Part shown: piece by piece, positions 24,001-60,000 of the stretch
Layout of the letters: every line of letters starts with the position of its first letter
Numbering within the stretch: position 1 is the first letter of the stretch
NCBI RefSeq assembly: GCF_963676685.1
Contig: NC_092344.1
Coordinates: 99,138,001 to 99,202,000, forward strand
Source of the DNA: Mytilus edulis
Taxonomy: Eukaryota
Direction of reading: 5' to 3'
Length of the DNA stretch: 64,000 bases
Position numbers: made by a program

Positions 24001-27000
24001 TATTTGTGTAATCATATTTGCTCCCATTTAATAATATCAAATCAACAATGTAATGCAAAAAATGACTAATTTTGATAAAATTATAATCTCTGGTGTTTAT
24101 GTTGTCACGGTGACATTCATACTGTATTTATGTTTGATCTTTTTGTTCATAAGTGGTCATATTGTGTAATCATACTCATTTTGAAATAAAACTATCATAA
24201 TTTTGATTGTATTTCATATTATTATTGCAAAAAAGTTATTTAGCACCAAATAATTGCATGTAACAATATACTTCTTCATCTCTTGTTAATGAATGTCAAT
24301 AGCATGAAAGTTGTTTTTGTTTTGTAGGAAATTTTACTCGACTAACTTTCTGTGTGACTGTAAACTAGCCTGGTTATCACAGTGGTTGATGGCCAAGAAG
24401 TTTGAGAAGTCTGTGACAGCTAGTTGTCAACATCCTGACGACCTTGAGGGAAAGAGTATCTTCAGTATTGACCCTGAGCTGTTCAAGTGTGGTAAGGGTT
24501 ATACTGCTTCTATAGTATATGCACATTAAGATGTCAAGTGTGGTAAGGGTTATACTATAGTATATGCACATTAAGATGGTATGCACAAATAAATTTCAAA
24601 GATAGTAAACTGATTGGAGAACAAGAGCAAAAACATAGAAAAATATCAGCAGTTTTTGGGTTTGTGTCTAAAATGGTTCAATATTTATTAATTTTAACAG
24701 TTCACCTCTCCTGTATTTTTTAGACCTGACCTTCATAAAGTTTTAAATAGTACCATTACAAGATACACTCACTAATTTCAAGTCCAGCTTAAGATAGTGT
24801 TGATTGAATCACTGATGAAGTGTGAATGAAGATAGTGTGTTTGATAACACACTGATATAGTGTGATTGTTGATTGGATGTGTGATAAAACACTGATATAG
24901 TGTGATTGTTGATAGGGTGTGTGATTAAACACTGATATCCAATGTTAACTGATTTCTACTGAATATGCAAGGACTTCAAATCAAATGAATTTTATGCGTG
25001 ATCAATTTGTGTGTACTGTGATTTTAGTGAACGAAAGGTCTGTTATGTATTTAATATAAAACATTTATCAAAGCACTTCAATAATATAGATCAGTTCTGA
25101 ATCTTTAAGTGATTGATTACATTACAGATGGTAATACATTAAAACCAGTGATCAGTATCAGTCCCATTTCCAGGAAAGCTGTACAGGGAGATAACATTAC
25201 TCTTACCTGTGAAGCTGTCAGTACAAAGGATTCAGATACACAATTCAATTGGAAGAAAGACAATATAGTAAGTTTCATTATTGTTATCCCAAAAAAGTTG
25301 TCAGCACTGCAGATTTTGAGAACTTGCTAAGCTGGAAGAAAGTTAGGTGAAAATATTTTTTTTTTTTTTGCTGGAAGAAAATTGTTTGAAAAAAGTGTTT
25401 TATTGCTTCTTAATTGTAGACCATAACATCAATGTGGAAGAGTATCCAATGCAAACAATTAATTTTAAAATAAAAAAAATCAGCTTTTGTGATGCTGTTT
25501 CATTGAGGACTTCCATGTATTCCTATCACACTTTCACAGTAAAATACAGGACAAAAGAAAACTGTACTGCAGCCATGGCTTTAAACAGAAAATATGCAGA
25601 CATCTCCATTTTAATCTAAAGTATCAATTATATTGTAAAATGTTTTTAGATATTAAAATGTTGGTTTCAGTAATTTTGATTGTGTTTAATACATGTATTG
25701 TAAGGATGATGTTTATATTTCAGTTACTGCTGAATCCATTAACTGAGAACAAAATAGCAAAAGATGATACTAAGATAATCAGATATTCCTCCAAATTACA
25801 TCTTTATGAACTGAAGGACGGTGATTCTGGGGTCTATCAATGTGTTATATTAAACAGCTTTGGACCAGCATACTCAATGAAGGCCTCCATTGAAGTCCAT
25901 GGTTAGTTTTGTCTCATAAATTATTTTTTGATATTTTTATGATTGTTTAATTTATTTCAATATTTGATGAATTGTGCTAATTTTGTTGTTCTAAATGTTC
26001 AACTATGCAACTATAGAAACTATGTCTTTCAAATGAAAAAGAATCAAAAATAGATTGACTCTTCAACCTGAAAGTCAAAGTTAGTAAATTTAGATTTATT
26101 ATCCATCTTTGCACCAACAAGAAGGACAAAAATTAACCATCCTTTTTCAGTATTGACCAGTTAAGTATGATACATTAAAACAAACATTCTAATATGACGT
26201 CCTTATTACGCTTTGTAAACAAAGCCGTGTTCTAATGAGCACAAAATATGTTTGACACATGCGCACGAACTTACTGTTTATATTAACGTTTTTTCCATCG
26301 TTACCCTTTAAAATATATACATTTAAGCAGCTAACATAAACTTTTATTATATATTTTTATGAAACAACATATATTAACCCTGCTCGTAGTTTTTAAACTT
26401 ATCAAATATGAAATGCAATGCACAGACTCCTCGAGGAGGAAACGGGAACAACCAAACATTTTTACGGTAATTTCGTACGCTTCGACCTATAAAAGTACTG
26501 TATTTGTCCTATTAGAATCGAAATAATTCCTTTATGTCATGCTCTATGCTCATTTTAACATGGGTAGGCATTATATTTGACCACATTTTACACCTCGCTT
26601 ACGCTCAGTGTAAAATATCGACAAATATAATGCCTACCCATGTTAAAATGAGCATAGAGCATGACATGTAGGAATTTTTTCTTAATTAGAAAATGAAGTA
26701 ACAAAAACTGTCATATATAGGATAATGGAAATAGAAGAAAAAAACACACAAAATATAAAGCATGTAAAACCATACAATAAAAGTTTATGATTCAAAGTGA
26801 TATGTGTAAATAAAAAAACAAAGTAATTCAGCAATATGGATTTTTTTTTTCAACTTCTTTTACAGTATTTTTCATAAATATGCTCATTTAAGTTAACGGT
26901 ACATTTTCTGTTGTCTAGTATTCCCCCACTTCTCAAAGAAACCATTTGATGTAACAGTCAAGGTTGGTTCAGCTGCTCGCTTGGAATGTTCTGCCACTGG

Positions 27001-57000: not shown

Positions 57001-60000
57001 GATGACATAGATGCCAAGTATGATGTATATAAACCAGGGTACACTCCTCTTAAATTTCTCAATACAAATGAAATGGAACCAGAAATGAGGTTGAAGATAA
57101 GATGGGGCACAACCGAAGAGTTCTACTTTCAAGAAAATCTGAAGAATAAATGTATCTTAGAAGGATCTCGTGCTTTTCTGAGTTGCTTTCTTATTGGAAA
57201 GTTGCCAATGTATGTTCAGTGGTACAAGGATGGGAAGGCATTACCGAACAACATTTATGAAAGATATGGAATCAGAGTAAGTCTTTAGATAGACTTTTTC
57301 AAAATTTTATGATTGATTGGTTGTTGGTGTTTAAAGCCATTTCCAGCACTCTCAGCTATATCATGGGGGCATTTTTAAAAATTTATGGTAGGGCAGACCT
57401 GAGGGGTATAGAACCACTAATCCAGGCTGGAAAGAACATTCACGAAAGTAGTACATTTGTAGATATTTTTAACAACAAAGTTCCTATGCTTAGCTGTATC
57501 TTTGTCAATAGATGAAATATTTGATATGCAAAGCTACAGACTAAAAGTTGATATTTGATTTGTAAAGACCAGTAATGTTTTAAGTTTTAGAGTTTTGATA
57601 TCAGACCCAATATTTTCAAATTGTAAAAATACTTTTAACTTACTATAAATTTATATTTCAGCAAATATCAGGACATCTGAGTCTAGAAATACTATGAACT
57701 GAGTTAGAGGATTGTAAATTGTTTGTTTTATATTTCAGCAAAGATCAGGACATCTGAGTCTAGAAATACCATGAACTGAGTTAGAGGATTGTAAATTGTT
57801 TGTTTTATATTTCAGCAAAGATCAGGACATCTGAGTCTAGAAATACCATGCACTGAGTTAGAGGATTGTAAATTGTTTATTTTATATTCCAGCAAAGATC
57901 AGGACATCTGAGTCTAGAAATACCATGCACTGAGTTAGAGGATTGTAAATTGTTTATTTTATATTTCAGCAAAGATCAGGACATCTGAGTCTAGAAATAC
58001 CATGCACTGAGTTAGAGGATACAGGAGATTATTTAGTGGATGTCAGGAATGAACAAGGCAGAACAAATTCCTCTTGTTATATACAAATAGAACGTATGTC
58101 CATCTATAACAGATAAATATATATGACGGCCAGAGACCATGAGTTTTGTATATGGTCAATATGTTTTCACCAAAATATTTTCCCAAATATTTAATGATAA
58201 AACAGAGTTAAACATTAAACAGACCTGAGTACTCAAACGCTAAATTTGAAAGCCATGCATATATAAAAATACCTAAAAAAATAGCCCTGATTAATCCAAC
58301 TTAAGGTAAATTTCTTGATAACTTTTTAATTTATCAACAGAAATTTAAGAAAAGTATGTTGTCAATCATGTTGGTATTGAAGCACTGATTACGGTAATAA
58401 TAAAATAATTGTCAGTTTCTGTCATAGGCAGTGATTCTCAGTGACTTGTAAGTATCAAATATTTTTAAAAACATTAATATTTAGATAACTTGAATTTCAG
58501 CAAGATTCAAACATGATATTGAATTTGAAAAGCCAACATTTGTGGAGGGAATTCGCCATATTCATGTAAATGAGGGACAGACGGCTACATTCCAAGTTAT
58601 TGTCAAAGGGAAACCTAGGCCAGGAATAAAATGGTAAGGGGAAATGTCAAAAGCAATCAATCATAAGACAGGAATAACAAGGTAAGGTTAAAAGCAATCC
58701 TTAGCTAGGAATTACATGGTATGGGTAAATGGCAAAGGCAATCCTTATCCAGTAGTATCATGATAAGAAGATAAAGGCTTTCCTATCCAGGGATAACATG
58801 GGACCGGGAAATGTCAAAGGTTTTCCAAAGCCAGGAATAACTTGGTGAAAAGAAATGTCAAAGGCAATCCCAAGCCAGGAATAACTTGGTAAATAGAAAT
58901 ATCTTAGGCAATACTTAGCCAGGAATAACATGGATGAAACATCTTACCCCACCCTCATTTTGTAGGCATTTGATGTAGCTGTTAGTCAATAAACAAAATA
59001 AAAGCAGGACATTTATACTATGGTCAGGTTTAGATATACCATTTGGTAGAAATTTATATCTTCCAAATGTTACTTAAAAAAAATCATAATTATGTTGAAG
59101 TTACATTTTTGTCTCTTCAAATTGAAATACAATTATGTTAGTAATGTAATGTAAAAAAAAAGAAATATTAATTTTATATATTTAGTTATAATTCAGGTGG
59201 CTGTTAAAGGAAATCCCTCATTAGCATAACCATTATAAAGATATCTTATCATTTATGTCGCCATTTATATCATGAATACCTAATTTTAAAATGTAAGTGA
59301 AATGTATTTGTTTGAAATTACAATGAATATTTTATGTAATGTAGGTTTAAAGATGGAAAGCGTATCCAAGTTACACAGAAGACTACAATCCACAATGGTC
59401 AAAAGGGAGGTAGTCTGCTAATGATCCACACATGTAACTTCTCTGATCAAGGACTGTATAAAGTAGAGGCCCATAATATGGCAGGAAGGTGTTCTGGATC
59501 AGCTAAGCTTTCAGTTTTTGGTAAGCTTAAAACATGTGCTGTATTTTGCTCTTTAATTTAAATTGAAACCAAAAATTAACTTGCATTTGTTTTTTATTTT
59601 ATTTCAGATCATATAAGGAGATATCTGTTGTATTCTATTGTCATGTTTTTAACACTTTTATCTTTTTATGTCATCACTTTTATCAACCGTTTTATAGACA
59701 TGCTATGATAAACCAACTTGAACAAATATAGTCCGCAATACAATATGACTTAAAAGTCATTAGGAACAAAATTATAAATACCATCAGGTTCTCTGCAAAC
59801 AAAAAGCTTGCAGGAACCCTTTAAATAATGCTTGCAGAAGTTTGCAGCTAGCTGTGAACCTCCTGCAAAAGTTTGCAGAAACAATTATGTTTGCAGTAAG
59901 ATTGCAGGAAAAACTAAAATATAAGGGATGTTCAATGCTAGATTGCAGAAATCATTGACAATTCTATATGTTTTGCACAAACATTGTAAGAAAACATTAC

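What the first reader, a model, noticed from the sequence alone, without database searches (positions are those of the whole stretch)
24483..58939. Recurrent tandem amplification of exon-intron junctions in two unrelated genes
Seen: at least four independent arrays whose unit straddles a real splice site (24483 donor x2, 29614 decayed donor array, 57647 acceptor x5, 58601 donor x8). Each extends into the intron, leaves the true exon intact, and they span very different levels of divergence. Inference: 4 of roughly 50 junctions seems more than expected for random minisatellites. This points to a junction-biased duplication process or selective retention of decoy splice sites (raw material for intron gain, or unproductive-splicing control).
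Basis: partly seen in the sequence, partly recalled or inferred. Interest (0 to 1): 0.75.

Follow-up and report, generated by a model that had tools for sequence, protein, structure and literature searches.

The report
Splice-junction minisatellites ("mirages") in mussel genes
Four short tandem duplications in two mussel genes each copied a piece of exon together with its splice site into the neighbouring intron, a kind of repeat already described in amphioxus as "mirages", and this one window cannot show that splice junctions attract them.

Summary
The window is Mytilus edulis-like DNA. It holds 16 exons of LRIG3 and the first 10 coding exons of a 3048-aa unc-89-like Ig protein gene, both on the + strand, with 49 mapped GT-AG coding junctions.

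All four reported sites are real:
- 24483: LRIG3 exon 10 donor, 2 copies.
- 57650: gene 2 exon 6 acceptor, 5 copies, 95-99% identical.
- 58598: gene 2 exon 7 donor, 8 decayed copies.
- 29614: not a regular tandem array, but four degenerate copies of the exon 15 end and donor lie in intron 15, each beaten by 0 of 200 shuffles.

That the true exon stays intact follows from the geometry of any tandem duplication and is not a special property. Decoy copies carry stop codons and lose GT at about the general decay rate.

Enrichment depends on the null model:
- Unit-based: expected 0.58, P(>=3) = 0.016.
- Whole-array: expected 2.10, P = 0.34.
- 40-mer coverage: junctions 6.1% against introns 7.2%.

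The window was also picked after the fact.

The closest known class is the amphioxus "mirage" minisatellite (PMC3087553, PMC3902484). This is a new member of a known kind. A junction bias or a function for the decoys is unproven.

The parts
24328..24491 (+). LRIG3 exon 10 (LRRCT). The real donor is at 24491|24492 (GTG|GTAAGG).
   Evidence: Unique GT-AG solution against P0001. Pfam LRRCT at 18.9 bits, below the 20-bit cutoff, because a single exon was searched.
24483..24578 (+). Array A1, two copies (24483-24533 and 24534-24578). The unit is 9 nt of exon plus the donor plus 36-42 nt of intron. The decoy donor at 24542|24543 is identical to the real one.
   Evidence: TRF, period 45, 2.0 copies. 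Register shown. PWM score 8.7 for both donors. Junction 40-mer z = 9.4.
29563..29646 (+). LRIG3 exon 15 (cytoplasmic tail). The real donor is at 29646|29647 (ATC|GTAAGT).
   Evidence: The exon is conserved in a 79%-identical relative, P0002.
29678..30032 (+). Array A2, degenerate copies of the exon 15 end and donor inside intron 15: 29678-29723, 29759-29778, 29796-29847 (donor GTAAGT decayed to GTATAA) and 30000-30032. Spacing is irregular.
   Evidence: Iterated local alignment; each hit was reached by 0 of 200 shuffles. The 33-nt repeat is 85% identical. TRF does not detect the array.
57650..58020 (+). Array A3, 77 nt x 4.8 copies. The unit is 12 nt of polypyrimidine tract and AG, plus the first 51 nt of exon 6, plus a 14-nt filler that belongs to neither flank. 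Decoy acceptors lie at 57662, 57739, 57816 and 57893; the real one is at 57970.
   Evidence: TRF, 97% matches. Register. Copies are 95.2-98.7% identical to the real copy. Decoy acceptor PWM scores are 10.0-12.7 against 13.4 for the real site. Each unit also holds a donor-like ATT|GTAAAT with score 6.6.
57970..58093 (+). Gene 2 exon 6, the C-terminal half of an Ig I-set domain.
   Evidence: Pfam I-set profile positions 54-89. Collinear in the Mytilus galloprovincialis and M. californianus orthologues.
58501..58633 (+). Gene 2 exon 7, the N-terminal half of the next I-set domain. The real donor is at 58633|58634 (ATG|GTAAGG).
   Evidence: Pfam I-set profile positions 1-34.
58598..58950 (+). Array A4, about 44 nt x 8 decayed copies. 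The unit is the last ~31-36 nt of exon 7 plus the donor plus ~13 nt of intron. GT is kept in 5 of 8 copies. The decoy donors that the PWM scored above 2 have their GT at 58682, 58719 and 58889.
   Evidence: TRF calls 58773-58939, 77% matches. Manual cut and MAFFT. PWM scores 9.4, 7.4 and 6.3 against 10.3 for the real donor. Junction 40-mer z = 9.3.

Best explanation
These are 'mirage'-type minisatellites. They are ordinary short local tandem duplications, with units of about 44-77 nt, made by replication slippage or unequal exchange. Their duplicated segment happened to include a splice junction.

A tandem duplication leaves the outermost copy joined to the rest of the exon. The normal splice therefore stays available and the gene stays intact. 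The extra copies sit in the intron as pseudo-junctions. They drift neutrally, or are mildly harmful, and arrays grow, shrink and decay like any other minisatellite.

The four arrays arose at different times in a genome region that is generally rich in tandem repeats.

Shown here: the anatomy, the ages, the decay of the decoys and the intact orthologous proteins. Inferred: the mutational mechanism, and that the decoys are not used productively.
For: 1. Geometry. In all four arrays the real junction is the copy next to the exon body: first for the three donor arrays, last for the acceptor array.

2. The decoys are not coding.
- A1: reading past the real donor meets a stop after 17 codons (ORF 24308-24526).
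- A4: a stop follows directly after the exon's last full codon (ORF ends at 58634).
- A3: copies 1 and 2 have TGC changed to TGA, and the frame only opens at 57949.

3. Splice signals decay with the rest. GT is kept in 4 of 7 A4 decoys at about 77% array identity. In A2 it is kept in 1 of 4 copies.

4. The ages differ widely. A1 copies differ only by a 6-nt indel, A3 is 95-99% identical, A4 about 77%, and A2 survives as fragments of 69-85%.

5. A3 shows ordinary minisatellite turnover. Neighbouring copies share variants, and the outermost copy is the most diverged.

6. The same genes show other local duplications. There are intronic arrays at 18483, 20827 and 24810, three in-frame arrays inside the 2.7-kb exon 9 (54, 39 and 39 nt), and an older whole-exon duplication of exon 1 and exon 2.

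7. The units have no other copies in the window, so they are local and not transposon-borne.

8. Protein models of M. galloprovincialis, M. californianus and other molluscs run straight across all four junctions.

9. The same structures are described in amphioxus, where they are reported not to disturb splicing (PMC3087553 section 16; PMC3902484).
Against: An event-based count gives a nominal excess at junctions: expected 0.58 against 3 seen, P = 0.016, and P = 0.0024-0.031 with the fourth site included. A purely random process does not predict this.

Several decoys are strong. The A3 decoy acceptors score at or above the median real acceptor (10.0-12.7 against a median of 9.7). Each A3 unit also carries a donor-like site (score 6.6; the real exon 6 donor scores 6.3). 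One A4 decoy donor scores 9.4 and the A1 decoy equals the real site. How the spliceosome ignores them is not explained here, and no RNA data were available.

The 14-nt filler in the A3 unit matches neither flank, so its origin needs more than simple slippage.
Confidence: 0.7

Rival explanations
1. A junction-biased mutational process: tandem duplications start preferentially at exon-intron boundaries, for instance because of a local change in chromatin, composition or replication behaviour there.
For: Unit-based null: expected 0.58, with 3 or 4 seen, P = 0.016 to 0.0024. In amphioxus, mirages have been met in several of the few genes examined closely: Adh3, TnC, globins, PGBD5 and others.
Against: The whole-array null (P = 0.34) and the coverage comparison (6.1% against 7.2%, P = 0.70) show no excess. 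The window was chosen post hoc. The arrays cluster, so they are not independent. The copy frozen by selection makes old junction arrays easier to detect than purely intronic ones. Breakpoints sit at different distances from the junction, with 9, about 31-36 and 51 nt of exon in the unit, so no common breakpoint motif is evident.
Confidence: 0.12
2. Selective retention: decoy splice sites are kept because they tune splicing, either through unproductive splicing and NMD, or because extra U1 or U2AF binding sites help define the exon.
For: Strong decoy sites exist. Use of any decoy would give a premature stop, which is the architecture of unproductive splicing.
Against: Decoy GTs are lost in 3 of 7 A4 copies and 3 of 4 A2 copies, in line with overall decay. 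The arrays differ in age and unit, and no conserved element is shared. The amphioxus reports say that mirages do not generate aberrant mRNAs.
Confidence: 0.08
3. Assembly artefact: the young, near-identical arrays (A1, A3) are mis-assembled copies.
For: A1 and A3 are 95-100% identical between copies. Only one assembly could be examined.
Against: A3 copies carry distinct substitutions shared between neighbours, and A1 copies differ by a 6-nt indel. A2 and A4 are too decayed to be artefacts.
Confidence: 0.03
4. Transposon-borne or dispersed repeats that happen to resemble, or have captured, exon ends.
For: Bivalve genomes carry many arrays linked to mobile elements (titles and abstracts listed). 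The intergenic part of the window is full of arrays.
Against: None of the four units has another copy in the 64-kb window beyond its own array. Every array abuts the real junction in register.
Confidence: 0.02

Closest known systems
'Mirage' minisatellites of amphioxus (Adh3, TnC, globin BflGb6 and BflGb9, PGBD5). Read: PMC3087553 section 16 and a passage of PMC3902484. The original report (Canestro et al. 2002, Nucleic Acids Res) was seen only as a reference entry and is not held.
   Same: Minisatellite-like tandem repeats whose unit spans an exon-intron boundary. Both 5' and 3' boundaries are affected. Many but not all units keep AG or GT. Unit sizes overlap (10-160 bp there, 44-77 nt here). 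Cluster turnover leaves the boundary copies apart. The real exon is intact.
   Different: The taxon is a bivalve mollusc rather than a cephalochordate. Normal splicing and length polymorphism were shown there by RT-PCR and by comparing haplotypes, and could not be tested here. Two of the arrays here are old and decayed.
Variable internal tandem repeats at exon-intron boundaries in human segmental-duplication genes (De Grassi and Ciccarelli 2009, PMC2812944; abstract and passages read).
   Same: Tandem repeats lie on exon-intron boundaries and can offer extra or cryptic splice sites.
   Different: There the repeats change the gene model, giving 27 curated intron modifications often with alternative transcripts. 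Here the annotated proteins are unchanged.
Intron gain by tandem duplication of an exonic AGGT: the Rogers 1989 model, Hellsten et al. 2011 (PMC3265369, abstract), the review PMC3443670 (passages), and Gao and Lynch 2009 (seen only as cited).
   Same: A small tandem duplication duplicates splice signals, and the extra copy ends up inside an intron.
   Different: No new intron is created here. An existing intron is merely lengthened by copies of its own boundary.
Human introns born from tandem arrays (Zhuo et al. 2007, PNAS). Only the title was seen, in reference lists. The content is recalled, not read.
   Same: Repeat units carry splice sites. The A3 unit has both an acceptor and a donor-like site.
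   Different: No evidence here that the units are spliced.

Membership tests
[quoted passage not shown] | Head-to-tail repeats whose unit contains a real exon-intron boundary. | tested here: met
   A1, A3 and A4 are in register with mapped GT-AG junctions. A2 is met only loosely: four degenerate copies with irregular spacing, not called by TRF.
[quoted passage not shown] | Many, but not all, units keep the AG or GT signal. | tested here: met
   A3: 5 of 5 AG. A1: 2 of 2 GT. A4: 5 of 8 GT. A2: GT in the real copy and 1 of 4 decoys.
[quoted passage not shown] | Regular splicing is not disturbed. | not testable with these tools
   No RNA data were available. The only indirect evidence is that database protein models of three Mytilus species are collinear across the junctions.
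[quoted passage not shown] | Copy-number instability between haplotypes or individuals. | not testable with these tools
   Only one haplotype, the window itself, is available. No mollusc genome collection was on hand.
[quoted passage not shown] | Concerted turnover within the cluster, with the boundary copies set apart. | tested here: inconclusive
   In A3 neighbouring copies share variants, and the outer copy is the most diverged (95.2% against 97.4-98.7%). Five copies are too few for a tree.
Rogers-type intron gain by tandem duplication | A new intron appears between duplicated AGGT sites inside a former exon. | tested here: not met
   All four introns separate exons that are contiguous in orthologous proteins, and no added intron position is seen. 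The arrays lie inside pre-existing introns.
Regulated unproductive splicing (poison exons or decoy sites) | Decoy sites are conserved above the neutral rate and are used in transcripts. | tested here: inconclusive
   Within-array decay of GT looks neutral. Cross-species conservation and usage could not be tested.

The most novel reading that the evidence does not exclude
Mirage formation is truly biased towards junctions in highly polymorphic marine invertebrates, with mussels joining amphioxus. Either splice junctions are hotspots for small tandem duplications, or arrays of decoy splice sites are retained because they modulate exon definition or feed NMD-coupled unproductive splicing. Under this reading the A3 units, each with a strong acceptor and a donor-like site, would act as 53-nt poison pseudo-exons.
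Probability: 0.15. Interest if true: 0.6.

Novelty: new member of a known kind. Interest (0 to 1): 0.3.

Why it matters
If the arrays are only what they seem, they are a tidy example outside chordates of how small tandem duplications lengthen introns with copies of their own boundaries and seed cryptic splice sites. They also matter for annotation, because strong decoy sites right beside real ones can mislead gene predictors in bivalve genomes.

A demonstrated junction bias would bear on two open questions: how introns grow and arise, and how the spliceosome ignores near-perfect decoys.

My literature searches found mirage reports only for amphioxus and none for molluscs. These were keyword searches of an open-access library, so they are not exhaustive.

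Tried and rejected
- **Site 29614 as a dispersed repeat.** I first read it as a single 33-nt repeat 394 nt downstream, possibly the remnant of a 394-nt duplication. The flanks show no residual similarity: the right flank score was reached by 119 of 200 shuffles and the left by 28 of 200. That idea was dropped. Iterated alignment then found four degenerate copies.
- **Permissive TRF.** A run on 29450-30300 found only AT-rich micro-repeats.
- **First tile scan.** A sensitive 60-nt tile scan with a strict complexity filter lost known arrays and ended in a script error. It was repeated without the filter. Scores of 17-19 there are mostly AT-rich noise, so only loci scoring >= 20 were used in the sensitivity variants.
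- **LRIG3 N-terminus.** A search for residues 1-86 in the window found nothing credible. I therefore treated 1-4781 as intron.
- **Rfam.** A scan of the whole window at gathering thresholds gave 0 matches.
- **Transposon origin.** Rejected because no dispersed copies of the units were found.
- **Papers not held.** Gao and Lynch 2009, Zhuo et al. 2007 and Canestro et al. 2002.
- **Not possible here.** Comparison with DNA of other mussels, and any RNA-seq check.
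Full report
**What the window is.**
One exon at a time was searched. The 369-aa open frame at 27924-29030 hit 'leucine-rich repeats and immunoglobulin-like domains protein 3 [Mytilus edulis]' (P0001, 1146 aa) at 99% identity. The large open frame at 60300-63068 hit P0121 at 100% identity. P0121 is a 3048-aa protein that the window itself encodes. Its orthologues are in M. galloprovincialis (92%) and M. californianus (74%, named 'muscle M-line assembly protein unc-89-like').

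Local tblastn of these database proteins against the window, followed by a search for splice sites that reproduce the protein exactly, gave one unique GT-AG solution for each of 24 introns.
- LRIG3 exons: 4782-4853, 5373-5444, 7117-7254, 10695-10838, 11915-12058, 13785-13856, 16361-16432, 22429-22572, 23360-23584, 24328-24491, 25128-25267, 25724-25901, 26919-27200, 27937-28974, 29563-29646 and 30588-30802 (stop).
- Gene 2 exons: 48151-48307, 51709-51939, 54431-54560, 55561-55748, 56783-57276, 57970-58093, 58501-58633, 59345-59520, 60301-63006 and 63758 to beyond the window end.

That is 49 coding junctions. Residues 1-86 of LRIG3 are not in the window, so 1-4781 is taken as intron.

Nothing in the window looks human, and it contains no N.

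**The four sites.**
- **A1 (24483-24578).** There are two copies, identical except for a 6-nt indel. The unit takes the last 9 nt of exon 10 (an LRRCT exon), the donor, and 36-42 nt of intron.
- **A3 (57650-58020).** There are 4.8 copies of 77 nt at 97% matches. Each unit holds 12 nt of pyrimidine tract with AG, the first 51 nt of exon 6, and a 14-nt filler that matches neither the upstream intron nor the downstream exon. Copies are 95.2-98.7% identical to the real one, and the outermost is the most diverged.
- **A4 (58598-58950).** TRF sees only the last 3.8 copies (58773-58939, 77% matches). Hand-cut alignment shows eight units of about 44 nt. The first is the real end of exon 7 with its donor.
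- **A2 (29614).** This is not a regular array by TRF, even with permissive settings. However, the 75-nt exon 15 end plus donor has four further matches in intron 15, each reached by 0 of 200 shuffles. One of them (29796-29847) spans the donor.

A blind scan of all 49 junction-centred 40-mers picks out the same sites. Three have z > 9 and the fourth has z = 4.0. The next highest, the acceptor of the same exon 15 (29562), has z = 3.8 and was not followed up. The observation therefore stands.

**Anatomy and consequences.**
In every array the real junction is the copy next to the exon body. This is what any tandem duplication across a junction produces, so 'leaves the true exon intact' carries no information.

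The decoys are not coding.
- Past the A1 donor the frame stops after 17 codons.
- Past the A4 donor it stops at once.
- Copies 1 and 2 of A3 have a TGA where the exon has TGC, and the frame opens only at 57949.

I built position weight matrices from the window's own 24 donors and 25 acceptors, leaving the parent site out each time.
- The A1 decoy donor equals the real one (8.7).
- The A4 decoys score 9.4, 7.4 and 6.3, against 10.3 for the real donor.
- The four A3 decoy acceptors score 10.0-12.7, against 13.4 for the real site and a median of 9.7 for real acceptors.
- Each A3 unit also has a donor-like ATT|GTAAAT scoring 6.6, while the real exon 6 donor scores 6.3. The A3 units are therefore potential 53-nt pseudo-exons, and including one would shift the reading frame.

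GT survives in 4 of 7 A4 decoys and 1 of 4 A2 copies, about what overall decay predicts. Protein models of three Mytilus species run straight across both gene 2 junctions, and LRIG3 models from M. edulis and other molluscs run straight across both LRIG3 junctions. The units have no other copies in the window.

**Is it more than chance?**
The answer depends on the null (an earlier version is).
- **Event-based null.** Each of the 10 TRF arrays with score >= 100 in the 46,652-nt genic span starts as one randomly placed unit. The expected count is 0.58 and P(>=3) = 0.016. With A2 added, P(>=4) = 0.0024. A2 was found only because I looked hard at junctions. Adding the weaker intronic duplications from an equally sensitive tile scan raises this to 0.011-0.031.
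- **Whole-array null.** The expected count is 2.10 and P(>=3) = 0.34.
- **Coverage.** Of junction 40-mers, 3 of 49 (6.1%) have a nearby copy. The comparison figures are 107 of 1485 intronic 40-mers (7.2%; P = 0.70), 13 of 262 exonic (5.0%), and 168 of 864 tiles first labelled intergenic (19.4%). The 864 include the 171 tiles from 1-4781 that re-counts as intron. With the decoy arrays removed from the intron set, the figure is 23 of 1268 (P = 0.069).

The arrays are not independent. A3 and A4 flank consecutive exons about 600 nt apart, and A1 has another array 230 nt downstream. The copy frozen by selection also keeps old junction arrays recognisable for longer than purely intronic ones. Finally, the window was flagged after the pattern was seen. 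I conclude that an excess is possible but not shown.

**Mechanism.**
The best reading is ordinary minisatellite birth and turnover, by slippage or unequal exchange, in a repeat-rich genome. Selection is blind to the junction-straddling cases because the normal splice remains available.

The same genes show the full range of local duplication. There are purely intronic arrays at 18483, 20827 and 24810. There are three in-frame arrays inside exon 9 (54, 39 and 39 nt). There is also an older whole-exon duplication, exon 1 against exon 2, whose similarity ends at the donor.

Two points stay unexplained: how near-perfect decoys are ignored, and where the 14-nt A3 filler came from.

**What is known.**
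[quoted passage not shown] They were later reported in amphioxus globin, TnC and PGBD5 genes. There they affect both 5' and 3' boundaries, vary in copy number between haplotypes, and keep AG or GT in many units. They are reported not to give aberrant mRNAs (PMC3087553 section 16; PMC3902484 passage).

Human internal tandem repeats at exon-intron boundaries are described in PMC2812944. The tandem-duplication route to new introns is reviewed in PMC3443670 and shown experimentally in PMC3265369. Drosophila cases are in PMC2891723.

My searches found no mollusc report. The mussel arrays are thus a new member of a known kind.

**Left unchecked.**
- DNA of other mussels, haplotypes and RNA-seq could not be examined, because no eukaryotic genome or read collection was on hand and metagenome and viral contigs are closed.
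- Three key papers are not held.
- Supplementary files were not consulted. The repeat alignments and trees of PMC3087553 are in its additional files.

Noticed in passing
window 652-2191 (and 81-185): A satellite-like array of 21 copies of a 73-nt unit at 96% identity, inside what is probably an upstream LRIG3 intron. A diverged partial copy (77-81%) lies at 81-185.
   Followed up: partly
window 40383-40522 and 41165-41260: Two arrays of a 19-20-nt unit in opposite orientation; the consensus units are reverse complements of each other. They flank about 640 nt, like a foldback or inverted-repeat element with subterminal tandem repeats. A nearby pair, 39424-39563 and 41601-41734, is 89% identical.
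   Followed up: no
window 34566-35825, 37386-38042, 42286-42717, 44512-44620: The intergenic stretch between the two genes is packed with large-unit tandem arrays (units of 161, 125-260, 192, 158 and 38 nt). Of the 864 tiles that labelled intergenic (which include 1-4781), 19.4% have a nearby copy. Bivalve arrays of this kind are often linked to Helentron or MITE elements (titles and abstracts listed); that link was not tested here.
   Followed up: no
window 61329-61451, 61570-61654, 62181-62258: Three tandem arrays inside the 2.7-kb exon 9 of gene 2 have units of 54, 39 and 39 nt, all multiples of three. They give 18-aa and 13-aa peptide repeats in a Ser/Glu/Lys-rich region. The last array is 100% identical between its copies.
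   Followed up: partly
window 48173-48311 vs 51802-51943: Exons 1 and 2 of gene 2 are an old duplicate pair, each encoding half an Ig-like domain. They are about 74% identical in DNA and 72% in protein. The similarity stops just after the donor GTAA.
   Followed up: yes
window 24810-24938: A 40-nt x 3.2 array lies 230 nt downstream of A1 in the same intron. This suggests local clustering of tandem duplications.
   Followed up: no
window 4782-23584: The LRIG3 leucine-rich repeats are encoded by 72-nt, 138-nt, 144-nt and 225-nt exons. The nine introns that follow these exons are all in phase 2, with near-identical donors (8 of 9 are GTAAGT).
   Followed up: no
window 56783-59520: Both Ig I-set domains touched by A3 and A4 are split in mid-domain by an intron. 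Exon 5 end with exon 6 matches profile positions 2-43 and 54-89. Exon 7 with exon 8 matches positions 1-34 and 35-90.
   Followed up: partly
window 27538-27752 vs 30257-30481; 47315-47523 vs 56735-56514; 51429-51523 vs 56610-56516: Dispersed repeat pairs, 69-89% identical and some inverted, lie in introns of both genes and in the spacer. They are probably interspersed elements.
   Followed up: no
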